Positions 282-57,888 of a DNA stretch of 64,000 nt are shown here, piece after piece. Under the pieces are notes generated by a model. That model was given only the letters and a program-made list of their open reading frames with translations. It was not told where the DNA came from and ran no database searches. Made by a program: the position numbers and the translations under genes. This DNA comes from Octopus sinensis. Taxonomy: Eukaryota. Within the stretch, counting starts at the first letter, position 1, and each line of letters opens with the position of its first letter. Location: NCBI RefSeq assembly GCF_006345805.1, contig NC_043005.1, forward strand, positions 7,626,001 through 7,690,000. The letters run 5' to 3'.

Positions 282-1862
282 TCAATTAATAGGATTCCTC
301 TCAGAATGTAGTTGTTCATGTCTTTTTAAATGACGACTAGTGATAAATGACTTCTTGCATGTTCCACAATGATAGGGTCTTTCTCCAGTGTGACTGCGTT
401 TGTGGTCCACAAGATTGGAAGTATTAATGAATGATTTCTTGCATATTCCACAATGATATGGCTTTTCTCCTGTGTGAGTACGTTTGTGAACAACAAGACT
501 TGAATTATTAATGAATGATTTTCCACATGTCTCACAGTGGAAAGGCTTTTCTCCCGTGTGACTACGTTTGTGAACTACTAGACTAGAATGGAAAGAGAAG
601 GATTTTCCACAGATTTCACAATGATAGGGTTTTTCTCCAGTGTGACTTCGTACGTGGAGAACAAGATTCCAGTTATTGATGAAAGATTTTCCGCATATTT
701 CACAGGGGAAGGGTTTTTCCCCCGTGTGGACCCGTTTGTGTTTTGTTAAATCCCCAGTAGAGGCAAAACCTTTCCCACATACTTCACAGTGGAAAGGTTT
801 TTCTCCCGTGTGGATTCGTTTGTGAGTTGTTAAATTACTGTTTATCATAAACGATTTTCCACACAGTTCACAGTGGAAGGGTTTCTCTCCAGTGTGGCTA
901 CGTATGTGGACACCAAGATTTGAATTATTAATAAAAGATTTTCCGCATATTTCACAGTGGAACGGCTTTTCCCCAGTGTGTATTCTTCTGTGTTTTGTTA
1001 AGACACTGTAATAAACAAAAGATTTTCCGCATATTTCACAGTGGAAAGGTTTTTCTCCAGTGTGACTACGCATGTGAATAACAAGTTGAGAATTCTTAAT
1101 AAAAGATTTTCCACATGTCTCACACTGGAACGGTTTTTCTTCAGAGTGGATTCGTTTGTGACTTGTTAAATAGCTATTATTGACAAAAGATTTTCCGCAC
1201 ATTTCACAGTGATACGGTTTTTCCCCAGTGTGACTCCGTATGTGAACTGTAAGCTTAGAATTAGAGATAAAAGTTCTTCCACATATTTCACAGTGAAACA
1301 GATTTTCTCCACTGTGCATTCGTTTGTGTGTTGTTAACATACTGTTAGAAATAAAAGATTTTTTACATATTTCACAAGCATAGGGTTTCTCTCCAGTGTG
1401 GTTACGTTTGTGGATTGTGAGCTGAGAATTATCAATGAATGCCTTCCCACATACTTCGCAATGATATGGCTTTTTCCCACTGTGAATTTGTTGATGTCTT
1501 TTTAAGTGACTGCTAGTAATAAAGGATTTCTCGCATACTTCACAGTGAAATGGTTTTTCTCCAGAGTGGATTTTTTTATGTTTAGTCAAGACACTGTTGG
1601 ATACAAAATATTTGCCGCAAATTTCACAGTGGAAGAGTTTTTCCCTATTATGCATTTTTTTGTGCAAGGAGACTCCATGTTTTGATGAGAATGTTTTCTG
1701 ACAAACGCTACAGTTATATTCAGGAATATTTTTGTGTAATATTATTTCTTCAGTAAATGTTTCGTTGCATAAAGGTTTCTCATCACTGTATGTTTGTGTA
1801 AATGTATCTATATTGTTAAATACAGGTGTGTTTGAAGTATCCAAGTGATTAACATCCTCCAT
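282..1862 (-). CDS. C2H2 zinc-finger protein, 526 aa, 17 tandem fingers, no recognisable effector domain
   Basis: Uninterrupted ORF with 17 CX2C-X12-HX3H motifs joined mostly by TGEKP linkers, after a ~48-aa acidic N-terminus. Confidence 0.95.
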   Translation of the reverse strand: MEDVNHLDTSNTPVFNNIDTFTQTYSDEKPLCNETFTEEIILHKNIPEYNCSVCQKTFSSKHGVSLHKKMHNREKLFHCEICGKYFVSNSVLTKHKKIHSGEKPFHCEVCEKSFITSSHLKRHQQIHSGKKPYHCEVCGKAFIDNSQLTIHKRNHTGEKPYACEICKKSFISNSMLTTHKRMHSGENLFHCEICGRTFISNSKLTVHIRSHTGEKPYHCEMCGKSFVNNSYLTSHKRIHSEEKPFQCETCGKSFIKNSQLVIHMRSHTGEKPFHCEICGKSFVYYSVLTKHRRIHTGEKPFHCEICGKSFINNSNLGVHIRSHTGEKPFHCELCGKSFMINSNLTTHKRIHTGEKPFHCEVCGKGFASTGDLTKHKRVHTGEKPFPCEICGKSFINNWNLVLHVRSHTGEKPYHCEICGKSFSFHSSLVVHKRSHTGEKPFHCETCGKSFINNSSLVVHKRTHTGEKPYHCGICKKSFINTSNLVDHKRSHTGERPYHCGTCKKSFITSRHLKRHEQLHSERNPIN

Positions 1863-2186
1863 ATTTATTCTTCAGGAATTCTTAAAAACTGAGAAATATG
1901 AGAATATAATTTATGGTTCAATTTCTTGTCTTGTATACGATGAGAACTCTGCTATCATGCATGAAAAATATACAATGTAGATATATTTTCAAATAATCAT
2001 AAGAATGACTGGTCCTTTACTGGTACACATATTGTTGTATACAAAAAGCTTCTGTCTACTTAAAAAAAACGTTGGTATGGTTAATGAATGCTATGTAGAT
2101 GAAAAATATGTCCATATGTGATTGGTGGTAAATGTTTCGGTGAAAGCATCTACATCTGCTCATCTTGCAATGGAATACTCAGCAGA

Positions 2187-7121: not shown

Positions 7122-7517
7122 CTAGCAGTATCGCCCGGCGTTGCTCGGGTTTGTAAGGGAAATAACTATAAAGCATTTTTAGAGAGTTATAGCCAAAAAA
7201 ATAGCACAAAATTGCATTAAAAATGGAAAAAAAATGATGGTAATTTTTTTTAAATCGTTGACTCATCGTAGACATTTTTAGAGAGTTACTTCCCTTATAT
7301 AATAGCGAAAAAATGCATTAAAATGGAAAAAAATGATGGTAAATTATTTTAAAAATCGTAGACTCATCGTAGACGCGCGCTAATACCCAGAAGGGCTCCA
7401 TATGAATCACGACTATAAGATACCCGGTTTTGGTTAAACTGCACCGCAAAATGTGGGAGTAGTTAGGAATCTAAATCGTAGGAGACAGACACACAACCTT
7501 ACTTTTATATATAAAGA
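7122..7517 (-). mobile_element. Non-autonomous Helitron (family E)
   Basis: Minus strand: 5' TC, subterminal cccgagcaacgccggg hairpin, 3' CTAG, inserted in an A|T site. Confidence 0.85.
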
Positions 7518-8634: not shown

Positions 8635-9598
8635 AGTTAACAAGAATTGTATTGGCATTTATACATTTAGGCAGGTTTAAAGGGGTGGTGGTGGGGGACT
8701 TTTTGGGGGTAGGCATAGCGCAAAATATCATACTGGGGGAGTGGTCAAGGAGTCAGTGGTAAATTAGATAAAAGAATAAATAAAAAAGTAAAAAAATATA
8801 TATAAAAAAGAATAGAGTTTTAGGTAAATAAGGAGATTCTCACTTATACCTATACACATATGTATACATATATACACACACATACATACATATATACATA
8901 CACACATACATACACGCACACACATATACATATATATACACATACACATACATATACATATCTACACATACACATATATATATACATACACTCACTCACA
9001 TGCATACACGTATACACACATGTATATATACACACACGACCACACATACATATACACACAGAAAAATATATATACATACACACATACACACATGCACACA
9101 CAGCACACTAGTCCCTATATACACATATATACACATACACACATATATATACATACACATACATATACATACATATATATATATATACATATGTGTACCT
9201 ATACATACCTACACATACACACATATATATATACATACAAATACAGACCCATTCTCTAATTTTAATTTTATTATCTTCATTTATTACTTTTGTTATCTTT
9301 GACCGCTGGTCCCAAGGATCTTGGCTATGACAGCAAGTCCATTTATCTGTCTACTTGAAAACAAGCACTCATTCACGCACGCACACTCATTAGCACGTAC
9401 ACTCACTCATTCGTACACTCATACACATACACGCACGCACGCGTTATATTCATACATACATACATCTACATACCTTCACGTATATACACATACGTACGCG
9501 TACCTACAGATTCATGTCTACACTCTTAGAAGGCTAGTCTATACATATACACCAATAAATATATATATACACACACATACATATACACCTACATACAA

Positions 9599-10566: not shown

Positions 10567-11332
10567 ACGTATGTGTATATACGTGAAGGTATGTAGATGT
10601 ATGTATGTATGAATATAACGCGTGCGTGCGTGTATGTGTATGAGTGTACGAATGAGTGAGTGTACGTGCTAATGAGTGTGCGTGCGTGAATGAGTGCTTG
10701 TTTTCAAGTAGACAGATAAATGGACTTGCTGTCATAGCCAAGATCCTTGGGACCAGCAGTCAAAGATAACAAAAGTAATAAATGAAGATAATAAAATTAA
10801 AATTAGGAATGGGTCTGTGTATTTGTATGTATATATATGTGTGTATGTGTAGGTATGTATAGGTACACATATGTATATATATATATATATATATGTATGT
10901 ATATGTATGTGTATGTATATATATGTGTGTATGTGTATATAGTGTATATAGGACTAGTGTGCTGTGTGTGCATGTGTGTATGTGTGTATGTATATATATT
11001 TTTTGTGTGTATATGTATGTGTATGTGTATATATATGTATATGTGTGTGTGTGTATGTATGTGTGTATGTATATATGTATGTATGTGTGTGTATATATGT
11101 ATACATATGTGTATAGGTATAAGTGAGAATCTCCTTATTTACCTAAAACTCTATTCTTTTTTATATATATTTTTTTACTTTTTTATTTATTCTTTTATCT
11201 AATTTACCACTGACTCCTTGACCACTCCCCCAAGTATGATATTTTGCGCTATGCCTACCCCCCAAAAGTCCCCCACCACCACCCCTTTAAACCTGCCTAA
11301 ATGTATAAATGCCAATACAATTCTTGTTAACT

Positions 11333-14685: not shown

Positions 14686-15085
14686 GGCGCAGGAGTGGCT
14701 GTGTGGTAAGTAACTTGCTAACCAACAACATGGTTCCGGGTTCAGTCCCACTGCATGGCATCTTGGGCAAGTGTCTTCTACTATAGCCTCGGGCCGACCA
14801 ATGCCTTGTGAGTGGATTTGGTAGACGGAAACTGAAAGAAGCCTGTCGTATATATGTATATATATATATGTATGTGTTTGTGTGTCTGTGTTTGTTCCCC
14901 TAACATTGCTTTACAGCCGATGCTGGTGTGTTTACGTCTCCGTCACATAGCGGTTCGGCAAAAGAGACCGATAGAATAAGTACTGGGCTTACAAAGAATA
15001 AGTCCCGGGGTCGAGTTGCTCGATTTAAGGCGGTGTTCCAGCATGGCCGCAGTCAAATGACTGAAACAAGTAAAAGAGTAAAGAG
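14686..15085 (+). mobile_element. SINE family A
   Basis: Full-length copy in a TA tract. Confidence 0.9.
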
Positions 15086-15095
15086 TATATATATG

Positions 15096-15374
15096 CGTGG
15101 CACCAGTATCTACCATTTTGCCTCCGTGAGACCCAACGCTAAAAATTGCTTTTTACGTTCCACTGGCACAGGTGCAAGTTATGTGACACTAGTAGCGGCC
15201 ACAACTACGATTCCACTTGGCTAGCTGATTATATTGCCAACGTTCTCGGTCACCAGCCATTGGCTCTGTGAGACCCAAAATTCAAAGATCATGCCTCACC
15301 ACCTCGTCCCATGTCTTTCTGGGTTCCCTCCACACTTAGAGATCGGCACTTTTTATACAGCGGTTTCCATCCAT
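15096..15374 (-). mobile_element. RTE LINE 3' end (ORF C-terminus plus UTR)
   Basis: Minus strand reads MDGNRCIK..CRSLSVEG..RKTWDEVVRHDL with frameshifts, followed by family-F-like UTR. Confidence 0.7.
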
Positions 15375-18008
15375 AAGGGGAGTACCGACAGATATCAAAT
15401 AGGAGTACCGACAGAGATCAAAGAGGAATGGCGACAGAGATCAAAGGGGAGTACCGACAGATATCAAAGACAAATGCCATCAAAGAGGAATGCCGACAGA
15501 GATCAAAGAGGAATGCCGACAGAACAAAGGGGAGTTCCGACAGAGATCAAAGAGGAGTTCCGACAGAGATCAAAGGGGAGTGCCGACAGAGATCAAAGAG
15601 GAGTACCGACAGATATCAAAGACAAATGCCGTCAAAGATCAAAGAGGAATGCCGACAGAGATCAAAGAGGAATGCCGACAGAGAACAAAGGGGAGTACCG
15701 ACATAGATCAAAGAGGAATGCCGACAGAGATCAAAGAGGAGTACCGACAGAGATCAAGGACAAATGCCGAAAGAGATCAAAGGGGAGTACCGACAGAGAT
15801 CAAAGAGGAATGCCGACAGAGATCAAAGGGGAGTACCGACAGAGATCAAAGAGGAATGCCGACAGAGATCAAAGGGGAGTACCGACAGAGATCAAAGAGG
15901 AATGCCGACAGAGATCAAAGGGGAGTACCGACAGAGATCAAAGAGGAATGCCGACAGAGATCAAAGGGGAGTACCGATATAGATCAAAGAGGAATGCCGT
16001 CAGAGATCAAAGAGGAGTACCGAGAGAGATCACAGAGAATGCCGACATAGATCAAATAGGAGTACCGACAGAGATCAAAGAGGAATGCCGACAGAGATCA
16101 AAGGGTGTACCGACAGATATCAAAGACAAATGCCATCAAAGATCAAATAGGAATGCCGACAGAGATCAAAGAGGAATGCCGACAGAGATCAAAGGGGATT
16201 TCCGACAGAGATCAAAGGGGAATGCCGGCAGAGATCAAAGGGGAGTACCGAGAGAGATCAAAGAGGAATGCCGTCAGAGATCAAAGAGGAATGCCGACAG
16301 AGATCAAATAGGAGTACTGACAGAGATCAAATAGGAGTCCCGAGAGAGATCAAAGGGGAGTACCGACAGAGATCAAATAGGAGTACCGACAGAGATCAAA
16401 GAGGAATGCCGACAGAGATCAAAGGGTGTACCGACAGATATCAAAGACAAATGCCATCAAAGATCAAAGAGGAATGCCGACAGAGATCAAAGAGGAATGC
16501 CGATAGAGATCAAAGGGAAGTACCGAGAGAGATCAAAGGGGAGTACCGACAGAGATAAAATAGGAATGACGACAGAGATCAAAGAGGAATGCCGACATAG
16601 ATCAAAGAGGAGTACCGACAGATATCAGAGACAAATGCCGTCAAAGATCAAAGAAGAATGCCGACCGAGATCAAAGAGGAATGCCGACAGAGATCAAAGG
16701 GGAGTACCGAGAGAGATCACAGAGAATGCCGACAGAGATCAAATAGGAGTACCGACAGAGATCAAAGATGAATGCCGTCAGAGATCAAAGAGGAATGCCG
16801 ACAGAGATCAAATAGGAGTACCGACAGAGATCAAATAGGAGTCACGAGAGAGATCAAAGGGGAGTACCGACAGAGATCAAATAGGAGTACCGACAGAGAT
16901 CAAAGAGGAATGCCGACAGAGATCAAAGGGTGTACCGACAGATATCAAAGACAAATGCCATCAAAGATCAAAGAGGAATGCCGACAGAGATCAAAGGGGA
17001 GTTTCGACAGAGATCAAAGGGGAGTACCGACAGAGATCAAATAGGAATGCCGACAGAGATCAAAGGGGAGTACCGACAGAGATCAAAGAAGAATGCCGAC
17101 AGAGATCAAAGAGGAGTACCGAGAGAGATCAAGGACAAATGCCGTCAAAGATGAAAGAGGAATGCCGACAGAGATCAAAGAGGAATGCCGTCAGCGATCA
17201 AAAAGGAATGCCGATAGAGATCAAAGGGGAGTACCGACAGAGATAAAATAGGAATGCCGACAGAGATCAAAGAGGAATGCCGACATAGATCAAAGGGGAG
17301 TACCGAGAGAGATCAAAGGGGAGTACCGACAGAGATAAAATAGGAATGCCGACAGAGATCAAAGAGGAATGCCGACATAGATCAAAGAGGAGTACCGACA
17401 GATATCAGAGACAAATGCCGTCAAAGATCAAAGAAGAATGCCGACAGAGATCAAAGAGGAATGCCGAGAGAGATCAAAGGGGAGTACCGAGAGAGATCAC
17501 AGAGATCAAATAGGAGTACCGACAGAGATCAAAGAGGAATGCCGTCAGAGATCAAAGAGGAATGCCGAGAGAGATCAAAGGGGAGTACCGAGAGAGATCA
17601 CAGAGATCAAATAGGAGTACCGACAGAGATCAAAGAGGAATGCCGTCAGAGATCAAAGAGGAATGCCGACAGAGATCAAATAGGAGTACCGACAGAGATC
17701 AAATGAGTCCCGAGAGAATCAAAGGGGAGTTTCGACAGAGATCAAAGAGGAATGCCGGCAGAGATCAAAGGGGAGTACCGACAGAGATCAAGGACAAATG
17801 CCGTCAAAGATCAAAGAGGAATGCCGACAGAGATCAAAGAGGAATGCTCACAGAGATCAAAGGGCAGTACCGACAGAGATCAAAGAGGAATGCCGACAGA
17901 GATCAAAGGGGAGTACCGACAGAGATCAAAGAGGAATGCCGACAGAGATCAAAGGGGAGTACCGAGAGAGATCAAATAGAATGCCGACAGAGATCAAATA
18001 GGAGTACC
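15375..18008 (+). repeat. 23-bp minisatellite, about 114 units
   Basis: Main units CCGACAGAGATCAAAGAGGAATG and CCGACAGAGATCAAAGGGGAGTA, plus minor variants. Confidence 0.97.
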
Positions 18009-18102
18009 TATAGCAGAAGACACTTGCCCAAGATACCACGCAGTGGGACTGGACCCTGAATGATGTGGTTGGTTAGCAAGCTACTTACCACACAGCCACT
18101 CC
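18009..18102 (-). mobile_element. SINE family A head abutting the minisatellite
   Basis: Minus strand ggagtggctgtgtggtaagtagcttgc...cttgggcaagtgtcttctgcta joins directly to the array. Confidence 0.8.
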
Positions 18103-18516: not shown

Positions 18517-19030
<514 letters not shown>

Positions 19031-19248
19031 ATATGAATCCACCTGTGTTTAGTTAAATTACCACTTCCAGAGATACGTTTTTTCTCCTGTATTAATGTGT
19101 TTATGAGTGGTTAAGTGACTTGTGATAGAGAATGATGCACCACGCATATATCATAGTGATATGCTTTCTCTCCTGTATGAATGTGCTTACGTTTAGTTCA
19201 GACACCGTTTTCAGAAAATGATTAACCACAAATATTACAGTGATTGGC

Positions 19249-19653
19249 ATCCGTGCTAGTGGAGCGCTAAGAGTACCATACAAGTGAGATCGGAGCCAGA
19301 GCAACAAGCTGACCTCTGTGCTGATGGCATGTTAAAAACACCATTCAAGCTCCATCCAACCAAAATGCAAATATATGGGAAACTACCACCTGTGTCATCT
19401 CTTGTGAAAGGTAGGAGAGTCCAGTTTGCTGGACATTGTTGTAGAGCTGAAAAAGAGGTAATTTCTACTCTTCTCCTCTGGAAGCCATCTACTCGCAATA
19501 CCAGAGGGCGCACACTCTCCTACCCTGATGTAATCTCTAGGGATACAGGCATCCAGCAACAGGACCTCCGTAATGCCATGATGGACTGTGAAGTCTGGCG
19601 TAGCATGGTAAATTCCATTGTCTCGACCACGGTCGAACAATGATGATGATGAT
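19249..19653 (+). mobile_element. RTE-clade LINE 3' end
   Basis: IYGKLPPVSSLVKGRRVQFAGHCCR...LLLWKP...RDTG...AMMDCEVWR, followed by a (TGA)n tail. Confidence 0.85.
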
Positions 19654-23379: not shown

Positions 23380-23774
23380 TCTTTATATATAAAAGTGAGG
23401 TTGTGTGCTGTCTGTCTCCTACGATTTAGATTCCTAACTACTCCCACATTTTGCGGTGCAGTTTAACCAAAACCGGGTATCTTATAGTCGTGATTCATAT
23501 CGAGCCCTTCTGGGTATTAGCGCGCGTCTACCATGACTCTACGATTTTAAAAAAAAATTACCATCAATTTTTCCCATTTTTAATGCATTTTTGGCATATA
23601 TAAGGGAAGTAACTCTCTAAAAATTTATTATTAAATCTCAGAACGTAAAATGCTACAGTAACACCCCCCTTTGTGGTTAGCCATATTGAGATGGCTATTA
23701 TACTTTACATCTCTAAAAATGCTTATATAGTTATTTCCCTTACAAACCCGAGCAACGCCGGGCGATACTGCTAG
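23380..23774 (+). mobile_element. Non-autonomous Helitron (family E)
   Basis: A|TC...cccgagcaacgccggg...CTAG|T. Confidence 0.9.
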
Positions 23775-32396: not shown

Positions 32397-32840
32397 GGAT
32401 CTTTTCGGTTTGAACGGCAGTTTTTAACATAATTTCTAGGTAACTAAAAAATTTTAAACTTCGTATACTGGTAGAATGTGTTTATAAAACATCTTTTTCT
32501 CTTGGATTTATTGAGAAAATTTTATAGTTTGTAAGATATTTGTTGTTGTTTTTTTCTTCAATTTCTGCATTTTCAACCAATCAATGACCGTCTATTGAGG
32601 TGAAAGCATTCTGTGCCGTATGAATATGTCCCTCGTTCAAGAAACAGATTGGGTTTATTTACATTTGTGAAAAAAAAAAAGATACCCCCCTAACCCTAAC
32701 CCTAACCCTAACTAACCCTAACTCTAACCCTAACCCTAAAATAGATTGAAATGCAATAGATCGATACTAGGGTCATAATTATTGGTGACAATTTCATATG
32801 ACACCGCTAGAAAAAACTGCCGTTCAAACCGAAAAGATCC
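32397..32840 (-). mobile_element. MITE family D
   Basis: Perfect TIRs; (CCCTAA)n expanded at about 32688-32739. Confidence 0.9.
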
Positions 32841-33818: not shown

Positions 33819-34217
33819 CTAGCAGTATCGCCCGGCGTTGCTCGGGTTTGTAAGGGAAATAACTATATAAGCATTTCTAGAGATGTAAAGTATAATAGCC
33901 ATCTCAATATGGCTAACCACAAAGGGTGGAGGGTGTTACTGTAGCTTTTTACGTTCTGAGATTTAATGATAAATTTTTAGAGAGTTACTTCCCTTATATA
34001 TGCCAAAAATGCATTAAAAATGGGAAAAATTGATGGTAAATTTTTTTTTTAATCGTAGACTCATCGTAGACGCGCGCTAATACCCAGAAGGGCTCGATAT
34101 GAATCACGACTATAAGATACCCGGTTTTGGTTAAACTGCACCGCAAAATGTGGGAGTAGTTAGGAATCTAAATCGTAGGAGACAGACAGCACACAACCTC
34201 TCTTTTATATATAAAGA
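33819..34217 (-). mobile_element. Non-autonomous Helitron (family E)
   Basis: Near-identical to the 23380 copy, inverted. Confidence 0.9.
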
Positions 34218-57179: not shown

Positions 57180-57888
57180 CTAGCAGTATCGCCCGGCGTT
57201 GCTCGGGTTTGTAAGGCAAATAACTATATAAGCATTTTTAGAGAGTTATTGCCAAAAAAATAGCAAAAAATGCATTAAAAATGGAAAAAAAATTATGGTA
57301 AATTTTTTTTTGAATCGTAGACTCATCGTAGACATTTTTAGAGAGTTACTTCCCTTATATAATAGCGAAAAAATGCATTAAAATAGGAAAAAAATGATGG
57401 TAAATTTTTTTTTGAATCGTAGACTCATCGTAGACATTTTTAGAGAGTTACTTCCCTTATATAATAGCGAAAAAATGCATTAAAATAGGAAAAAAATGAT
57501 GGTAAATTTTTTTTTGAATCGTAGACTCATCGTAGACATTTTTAGAGAGTTACTTCCCTTATATAATAGCGAAAAAATGCATTAAAATGGGAAAAAAAAT
57601 GATGGTAAATTTTTTTTTGAATCGTAGACTCATCGTAGACATTTTTAGAGAGTTACTTCCCTTATATAATAGCGAAAAAATGCATTAAAATAGGAAAAAA
57701 ATGATGGTAAATTTTTTTTTGAATCGTAGACTCATCGTAGACGCGCGCTAATACCCAGAAGGGCTCGATATGAATCACGACTATAAGATGCCCGCTTTTG
57801 GTTAAACTGCACCGCAAAATGTGGGAGTAGTTAGGAATCTAAATCGTAGGAGACAGACAGCACACAGCCTCACTTTTATATATAAAGA
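57180..57888 (-). mobile_element. Helitron family E with an internal ~102-bp tandem array
   Basis: TC/CTAG ends; unit gtagacatttttagagagttac...gactcatc repeated 4-5 times. Confidence 0.9.

What the first reader, a model, noticed from the sequence alone, without database searches (positions are those of the whole stretch)
15375..18008. A natural 'TOPflash-like' array: ~100 TCF/LEF sites with helper-like RCCG motifs, interleaved with TEAD motifs
Seen: most of the ~114 23-bp units read RCCG-ACAG-AGATCAAAG, followed by either AGGAATG(C) or GGGAGTA. Known: AGATCAAAG(G) is the optimal TCF/LEF HMG-box site, and the variant AGATCAAAGGGGAGTA is close to the synthetic TOPflash unit AGATCAAAGGGGGTA. RCCG is the helper motif read by the C-clamp of invertebrate TCFs. 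GGAATG (CATTCC) is the TEAD/Scalloped M-CAT core. Inference: the array could act as a Wnt- and Hippo-integrating enhancer or a TF sink. It lies ~13.5 kb upstream of the intact ZNF gene and ~1 kb from a ZNF pseudogene. Caveat: slippage multiplies a single seed, so the copies are not independent evidence.
Basis: partly seen in the sequence, partly recalled or inferred. Interest (0 to 1): 0.8.

Follow-up and report, generated by a model that had tools for sequence, protein, structure and literature searches.

The report
Mobile satellite built from transcription-factor sites
This 2.6-kb repeat is one copy of a satellite family scattered over dozens of places in an octopus-like genome, whose repeat blocks match the binding sites of Wnt, Hippo and Grainyhead transcription factors; it likely spreads as selfish DNA that these factors are predicted to bind, rather than serving as an enhancer of the nearby zinc-finger gene.

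Summary
The array is real (23 bp x ~115), but counts were overstated: 82 TCF consensus sites, 41 TEAD sites, 39 exact helper+TCF units. It is not a one-off. The 16-base core occurs 4,909 times genome-wide (control 0), at over 50 loci biased to chromosome ends; none of 92 other family stretches had a ZNF gene within 10 kb. Seventeen loci sit in one non-autonomous Helitron. The rest, this one included, have unrelated flanks, inversions and captured foreign DNA, as in template-switch copying. The surprise lies elsewhere in the family: the TCF unit alternates, up to 11 cycles, with a 9-bp unit equal to the cooperative TEAD double site and a 10-bp unit holding the Grainyhead palindrome at CP2 spacing; a MEF2-like unit also joins. 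Linked units match a motif panel 5 of 11 (1.4 expected), controls 2 of 23. Common variants avoid the TCF columns (4% vs 12-14%, replicated); helper and embedded TEAD columns are not protected. Best reading: a selfish, modular factor-site satellite. Binding, open chromatin and enhancer activity are untested.

The parts
15375..18008 (+). Array of about 114 23-bp units (T module): TCF consensus plus RCCG; two main variants alternate, one with the longer TCF site, one with a TEAD 8-mer
15091..15377 (.). 288-bp repeat fragment joined to the array by about 3 shared bases; 95% identical to one copy at G000:C9:89.70 Mb, which continues without an array, other copies 71-78%; LINE-like (label recalled)
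18009..18102 (-). Cut-off head of a high-copy SINE-like repeat (label recalled) joined directly to the array end; no target-site duplication
14686..15087 (+). Full copy of the same very high-copy SINE-like repeat, left of the captured fragment
18520..19260 (-). C2H2 zinc-finger remnant, interrupted by other repeats; neighbour, not part of the array
   Evidence: tblastn E 4e-6 to 9e-5; sequence
282..1871 (-). Intact C2H2 zinc-finger ORF (529 aa stop to stop); neighbour; no evidence that the array regulates it

Best explanation
The array is one copy of a dispersed, modular minisatellite family whose main units match TCF, TEAD and Grainyhead/CP2 sites, and it likely persists as selfish DNA: arrays predicted to bind these factors would be open and get copied more often, likely by template switching during break repair and, for one subfamily, by riding in a Helitron. 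Shown: dispersal, module order, the Helitron-type carrier, mosaic junctions, lower variation in the TCF columns. Inferred: protein binding, open chromatin in germ line or early embryo, repair-driven copying, and selection acting on the array rather than on a host gene. Any effect on neighbouring genes would be a by-product.
For: Dispersal: 4,909 exact cores, control 0; 38 non-Helitron and 16 Helitron loci on chromosome-scale contigs, the former biased to ends (17 of 38 in the outer fifth of the end-to-middle distance, KS p=1e-4). Carrier: 18 of 40 stretches share a 1.29-kb 5' part at 93-98%; 12 of 18 start A|TC, 15 of 16 located 3' ends are hairpin-CTAG|T, flanks unrelated. Template switching: at C17:4.33 Mb a 773-bp unique piece from the C9:6.49 Mb flank lies between two T blocks; target duplications of 80, 277 and 475 bp at three loci; strand switches at short palindromes. 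Modules: T-E-G cycles, 11 at C17:14.5 Mb; 8 of 10 loci found by E or G patterns alone also hold T. The E unit equals CATTCC-NNN-CATTCC (PMC4546604) and its one common polymorphism is the W of RCATTCCW. The G unit holds AACCGGTT and CNRG-N6-CNRG (PMC5829564). Panel test: linked 5 of 11 vs 1.43 expected (P=0.008); controls 1 of 14 and 1 of 9. TCF columns vary 4.6% vs 14.2% (p=0.005) and 4.1% vs 12.4% in 10 independently found loci (p=0.006), while rare variants are even (p=0.37). TCF C-clamp-like exon and a CP2-family domain exist in the genome.
Against: No binding, accessibility or expression data. 6 of 11 linked unit types match no panel motif, and the panel was mostly recalled and set after the modules were seen. 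Arrays share ancestry, so the column test rests on about 24 common variants (4 in, 20 out); for the window alone the base-stratified p is 0.078. Helper columns are not protected. Only 152 of 564 G units are the commonest sequence and 225 carry the A that breaks AACCGGTT. Any tandem unit holding a site gives some fixed spacing. Only 4 of 50 blocks showed a flanking direct repeat. No autonomous Helitron was sought.
Confidence: 0.45

Rival explanations
1. Neutral minisatellite family; the motif likenesses are chance among many short units, and the conserved core reflects few founding mutations or a structural bias.
For: Rare variants are spread evenly; helper and embedded TEAD columns vary freely; 6 of 11 linked units match nothing; shuffled, oyster-type Helitron/satellite loci are known without any factor-binding claim (PMC12628747 passages).
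Against: The three cycling units each hit a panel motif with joint shuffle chance 4e-4; the E period equals the reported TEAD double-site spacing; the least variable window falls on the TCF site in three sets of loci; controls 2 of 23.
Confidence: 0.22
2. The modules descend from the enhancer of an autonomous mobile element or large DNA virus, which selected the sites for its own expression; the arrays are escaped pieces.
For: Blocks of optimal sites in a fixed order look like a built enhancer; nematode Helitrons carry arrays of heat-shock elements (PMC6927752 passages).
Against: No common flank among the compound arrays: among 109 flanks only small groups share sequence. In the Helitron the array follows a SINE and a spacer, as captured cargo. 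Viral scan gave 2 single matches, metagenome scan 0.
Confidence: 0.15
3. Host-selected signalling platform: the family as a whole serves as Wnt/Hippo-responsive enhancers, sinks or nuclear hubs kept for the host's benefit.
For: Motif evidence as above; human HSat3 binds TEAD/YAP and affects rDNA transcription (bioRxiv 2024.10.22.616524 abstract); family present in runs of 4 organism labels that were laid.
Against: Insertions are young and irregular, inside other repeats; about 0.3 Mb in all by extrapolation, small for a sink; no locus-level conservation shown.
Confidence: 0.13
4. A local Wnt/Hippo enhancer for the C2H2 zinc-finger gene 13.5 kb away.
For: 82 TCF consensus sites with adjacent RCCG and 41 TEAD sites in 2.6 kb; each helper lies 0 bases from one 11-base TCF site and 5 from the next, arrangements that are KK0 and AK5 in the terms of PMC4154663 (my assignment).
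Against: 0 of 92 other family stretches hold a ZNF hit; junction bridged in 1 of 4 runs, while two others show only a paralog-like contig ending at the junction; the gene's start site is unknown; spacings must sum to 5 in any 23-bp unit holding both sites.
Confidence: 0.05

Closest known systems
Caenorhabditis Helitrons carrying heat-shock-element arrays (Garrigues et al. 2019, PMC6927752; passages read)
   Same: Helitron-borne tandem copies of a factor site, over 100 per element in some copies, spread across the genome.
   Different: There one factor, with binding shown by ChIP. Here three or four different sites in alternating blocks, binding untested, and most loci, this one included, lack Helitron ends.
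Human Satellite 3 as TEAD/YAP binding platform (Franklin et al., bioRxiv 2024.10.22.616524; abstract and outline seen)
   Same: Satellite DNA made of transcription-factor motifs, TEAD among them.
   Different: HSat3 forms megabase blocks; these are 0.3-12 kb dispersed mobile arrays with discrete modules, each with its own period.
Helitron/Helentron-associated dispersed satellites of Crassostrea gigas (review PMC12628747; passages read)
   Same: Mollusc satellites found inside elements, alone and in between; shuffled loci with several array types and both orientations.
   Different: The passages read claim no factor-site content; here the carrier accounts for 17 loci only.
TOPflash-type synthetic reporters and natural Wnt enhancers (PMC4154663; passages and section 14 read)
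   Same: Multimerised TCF sites with neighbouring helper-like motifs.
   Different: That paper says such dense clusters are not found in natural Wnt enhancers; the helper here is at best 6 of 7 bases (36 units), and activity is untested.

Membership tests
Non-autonomous Helitron (carrier subfamily, 18 stretches) | 5' TC inserted after A | tested here: met
   12 of 18 start A|TC; 3 lie in (TA)n runs, 3 not located
Non-autonomous Helitron (carrier subfamily, 18 stretches) | 3' CTRR before T with a short hairpin upstream; no target-site duplication | tested here: met
   15 of 16 located ends are CTAG|T, one CTTG|T; hairpin -4.5 kcal/mol; flanks differ
Non-autonomous Helitron (carrier subfamily, 18 stretches) | Autonomous Rep/helicase partner with matching ends | not tested
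   not searched
Non-autonomous Helitron (the window's own array) | Helitron ends around the array | tested here: not met
   nearest ends of that family at 7164-7511 and 23385-23770; direct flanks are a LINE-like and a SINE-like piece
Dispersed minisatellite family | Kilobase tandem arrays of a 10-60 bp unit with interspersed variants at many loci | tested here: met
Wnt-responsive enhancer (TCF plus helper) | CTTTGWWS sites with RCCG nearby | tested here: met
   82 and 99 in the array; consensus from PMC4267635
Wnt-responsive enhancer (TCF plus helper) | Extended helper RCCGCC / GCCGCCR | tested here: not met
   0 exact; 36 six-of-seven matches
Wnt-responsive enhancer (TCF plus helper) | TCF binding, open chromatin, beta-catenin-dependent activity | not testable with these tools
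   no such data reachable
Wnt-responsive enhancer (TCF plus helper) | Conserved position beside a target gene | tested here: inconclusive
   junction bridged in 1 of 4 runs; contigs cannot show absence
TEAD double-site element | CATTCC-NNN-CATTCC | tested here: met
   met by the 9-bp sister module, 948 of 1,637 units being the two commonest forms; not met by the window, whose TEAD cores are single and 23 or more bases apart
Grainyhead/CP2 element | AACCGGTT; CNRG-N5/6-CNRG | tested here: met
   10-bp sister module, commonest unit 152 of 564; absent from the window
Factor-binding satellite (HSat3-like) | Demonstrated factor occupancy on the arrays | not testable with these tools
   needs CUT&RUN or long-read footprinting

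The most novel reading that the evidence does not exclude
Octopods carry a self-propagating enhancer-module system: arrays of optimal sites for Wnt, Hippo, Grainyhead and MEF2 effectors bind those factors in germ line or embryo, gather in shared nuclear hubs, swap modules by template switching, and seed new signal-responsive super-enhancer-like elements across the genome, with Helitrons amplifying one version.
Probability: 0.2. Interest if true: 0.85.

Novelty: new variant of a known kind. Interest (0 to 1): 0.62.

Why it matters
Satellites that bind one factor, and Helitrons that carry one factor's sites, are known. A mobile family that strings together separate blocks of TCF, TEAD-double and Grainyhead/CP2 sites, each at a fitting period, did not turn up in my four literature searches on octopus or Helitron repeats (only titles and abstract starts seen) or in a word search of a 2026 octopus repeat annotation (PMC13282606; its supplements not seen). 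If the sites are bound, the family offers a direct test of whether factor binding drives satellite turnover, and dozens of natural insertion alleles for asking how new signal-responsive enhancers arise in cephalopods. If they are not bound, it is an ordinary minisatellite.

Tried and rejected
Coding role: the ORFs over the array are translations of the repeat, broken by stops in all frames; rejected. One shared carrier for all loci: not found; among 109 flanks of non-Helitron blocks only small groups share sequence. Viral source: 2 single 17-base matches in viral contigs, not examined further; 0 two-unit matches in metagenome contigs. ZNF association: 0 of 92 family and 0 of 40 control stretches, a test limited to 10-kb stretches. 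Expression: no RNA holder listed; no evidence either way. The first read-laying was swamped by the SINE-like repeat and says nothing on the junction. Copying of long tracts between loci: the window shares at most 10% of its 46-mers and 2% of its 115-mers with any of 14 other segments, so no single donor was identified. CpG decay: none seen (C>T 6.3%, G>A 3.7% at the CpG, 1.5-7.5% elsewhere); uninformative on function. Earlier findings of this scan: three look-ups, nothing. PMC9427115 was opened for motif support and gave only primer matches.

Full report
Observation. Of 114 whole units, 76 hold AGATCAAAG, 82 the TCF consensus SWWCAAAG, 30 the longer SATCAAAGS, 99 RCCG, 39 the exact RCCG-ACAG-AGATCAAAG, 41 a TEAD 8-mer, none the extended helper RCCGCC and none the quoted TOPflash unit. 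Shuffled units hold AGATCAAAG in 0.06-0.08% of cases.

Surroundings. On the left the array joins, by about three shared bases, a 288-bp repeat fragment that is 95% identical to one copy at C9:89.70 Mb, where the sequence runs on without an array; other copies are 71-78% alike. On the right it joins the cut head of a SINE-like repeat. There is no target duplication. An intact C2H2 ORF lies at 282-1871 and a zinc-finger remnant at 18520-19260.

A dispersed family. The 16-base core occurs 4,909 times in the 2.72-Gb genome, control 0; 870 of these lie in 59 kb of arrays I parsed, which extrapolates to roughly 0.3 Mb. Pattern searches gave 38 non-Helitron loci (two of them with only the sister G module) and 16 Helitron loci on chromosome-scale contigs, plus several unplaced contigs; this is a lower bound. 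The 38 are biased to chromosome ends (17 in the outer fifth of the end-to-middle distance, 2 in the inner third; KS p=1e-4). No ZNF hit was found in 92 family stretches or 40 control stretches of up to 10 kb. Public runs of five organism labels hold words of the array; four labels were laid and show units. The left junction was bridged in 1 of 4 runs (X7, 72 bases, no difference). In X2 and X9 the only cover just left of the junction is a contig that stops matching there with two differences, as many as the paralog has; X1 has no cover. Contigs cannot prove absence, and X7 may be close to the window's source.

How it moves. (a) 18 of 40 stretches share a 1.29-kb 5' part at 93-98% identity; two have the same flanks, so 17 insertions. 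12 of 18 begin A|TC, 15 of 16 located 3' ends are hairpin-CTAG|T, and the flanks differ: a composite non-autonomous Helitron with the array as cargo behind a SINE. All 14 exact hits for its junction were already held. No autonomous partner was sought. (b) The other loci lack such ends. They show strand switches at short palindromes, a 773-bp unique piece from the C9:6.49 Mb flank lying between two T blocks on C17, and target duplications of 80, 277 and 475 bp at three loci (4 of 50 blocks had any flanking direct repeat). Small groups share one flank only. I read this as template-switch copying during break repair; that step is inferred. The window's array is of this second kind.

Modules. Many loci interleave the TCF unit (T) with a 9-bp unit (E) and a 10-bp unit (G) in a recurring order; C17:14.5 Mb has 11 T-E-G cycles. 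Of 10 loci found through E or G patterns alone, 8 also hold T. E (1,637 units, 14 loci) reads CATTCC-NNN-CATTCC, the TEAD double motif that PMC4546604 found enriched and functional (passages; PMC12008814 passages agree); its one common polymorphism, T 811 / A 724, is the W of RCATTCCW. G (564 units, 8 loci) holds AACCGGTT and repeats CCGG every ten bases, the Grainyhead and CP2 consensus given in PMC5829564 (passages); against this, 225 units carry an A that breaks the palindrome and only 152 are the commonest form. Permuted units give these sites in 0.36% and 0.08% of cases, the CP2 spacing in 12%. A linked 13-bp unit matches the recalled MEF2 consensus and a 58-bp unit holds TEAD sites. Against a 26-motif panel, mostly recalled and set after seeing the modules, 5 of 11 linked unit types match (1.43 expected, P=0.008, the T seed included), 1 of 9 unlinked units in the same loci and 1 of 14 units from 40 blind stretches; low-complexity units were filtered out first. 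The genome has a C-clamp-like exon with splice sites (motif recalled) and a CP2-family domain; TEAD was not searched.

Which columns are kept. Over 15 array segments (2,579 units) the TCF 9-mer varies 4.6% against 14.2% elsewhere (p=0.005, stratified by A/T versus G/C); for the window alone p=0.078. It is the least variable of 23 windows, and 4 of 24 common variants fall in it (9.4 expected, p=0.017). In 10 loci found through E or G the figures are 4.1% and 12.4% (p=0.006), and in 15 further loci 3.8% and 10.8%. Rare variants are even (p=0.37), so mutation hits everywhere but spread variants spare the core. The helper is not protected (p=0.47, 0.10, 0.19), and the GGAATG columns are the most variable (p=0.99); GGAATG ranges from 1% to 49% of units per segment. 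Arrays share ancestry, so these p-values overstate independence, and the core could be kept by another protein or by DNA structure.

Mechanism. Best reading (0.45): a selfish modular satellite. Arrays that bind abundant signalling and epithelial factors would be open, break and pair more often, and so be copied; modules meet by template switching and Helitrons amplify one version. Shown: dispersal, carrier, mosaics, motif matches, core conservation. Inferred: binding, openness, cause of spread. Rivals: neutral satellite (0.22), escaped enhancer of an unseen element (0.15), host-selected platform (0.13), ZNF enhancer (0.05).

Comparison and novelty. It works like nematode Helitron heat-shock-element arrays (PMC6927752 passages) and human HSat3 TEAD platforms (abstract), and is organised like oyster Helitron-linked shuffled satellites (PMC12628747 passages). 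The window's array is not itself a Helitron and is not shown to be an enhancer. Searches and a word search of PMC13282606 showed no description of this family; supplements and repeat libraries were not seen and may list the units. Verdict: new variant of a known kind, interest 0.62.

Noticed in passing
window 7164-7511 (-), 23385-23770 (+), 33861-34211 (-), 57221-57882 (-): Four copies of the small non-autonomous Helitron family whose ends build the carrier element; two hold 101/102-bp tandem repeats.
   Followed up: partly
window about 8830-9400 and 10650-11140: Inverted duplication of a microsatellite-rich stretch, visible as mirrored ORF translations on opposite strands.
   Followed up: no
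window 32688-32739: Nine copies of CCCTAA, an interstitial telomere-type run.
   Followed up: no
window 18660-19030 and 19260-19640: Two LINE-like pieces (labels recalled; Pfam found no family) interrupt the zinc-finger remnant.
   Followed up: partly
L184 (G000:C14:52.305 Mb) and L182: 13-bp array, up to 295 copies, containing a perfect match to the recalled MEF2 consensus, alternating with G blocks and the 58-bp unit.
   Followed up: partly
L176/L175 (G000:C11:12.87 Mb): At least 13 kb of a 13-bp unit that flips orientation about every 1-2 kb and runs into T-E-G cycles; no panel motif match.
   Followed up: no
L101, L103, L106, L108, L150: Further unit types adjoining T arrays (12/13/37-bp A/T-tract units, a 27-bp and a 32-bp unit) with no panel match.
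   Followed up: partly
L034-L038 (G000:C4:4.61-4.66 Mb): Two 10-12 kb arrays about 30 kb apart with the same flanks, one holding an assembly gap: tandem duplication or haplotype duplicate. C8469 and C9506 likewise repeat C17:14.5 Mb.
   Followed up: no
runs X1, X2, X7, X9 on window 15270-15430: Depth over the unit relative to the neighbouring repeat differs about 20-fold between runs; the tool warns that this is no copy number, so only a hint of fast family turnover.
   Followed up: no
L121:273-1592 and L202:2759-3239: 34-bp tandem arrays (39 and 14 copies) that look derived from a piece of the SINE-like repeat.
   Followed up: no
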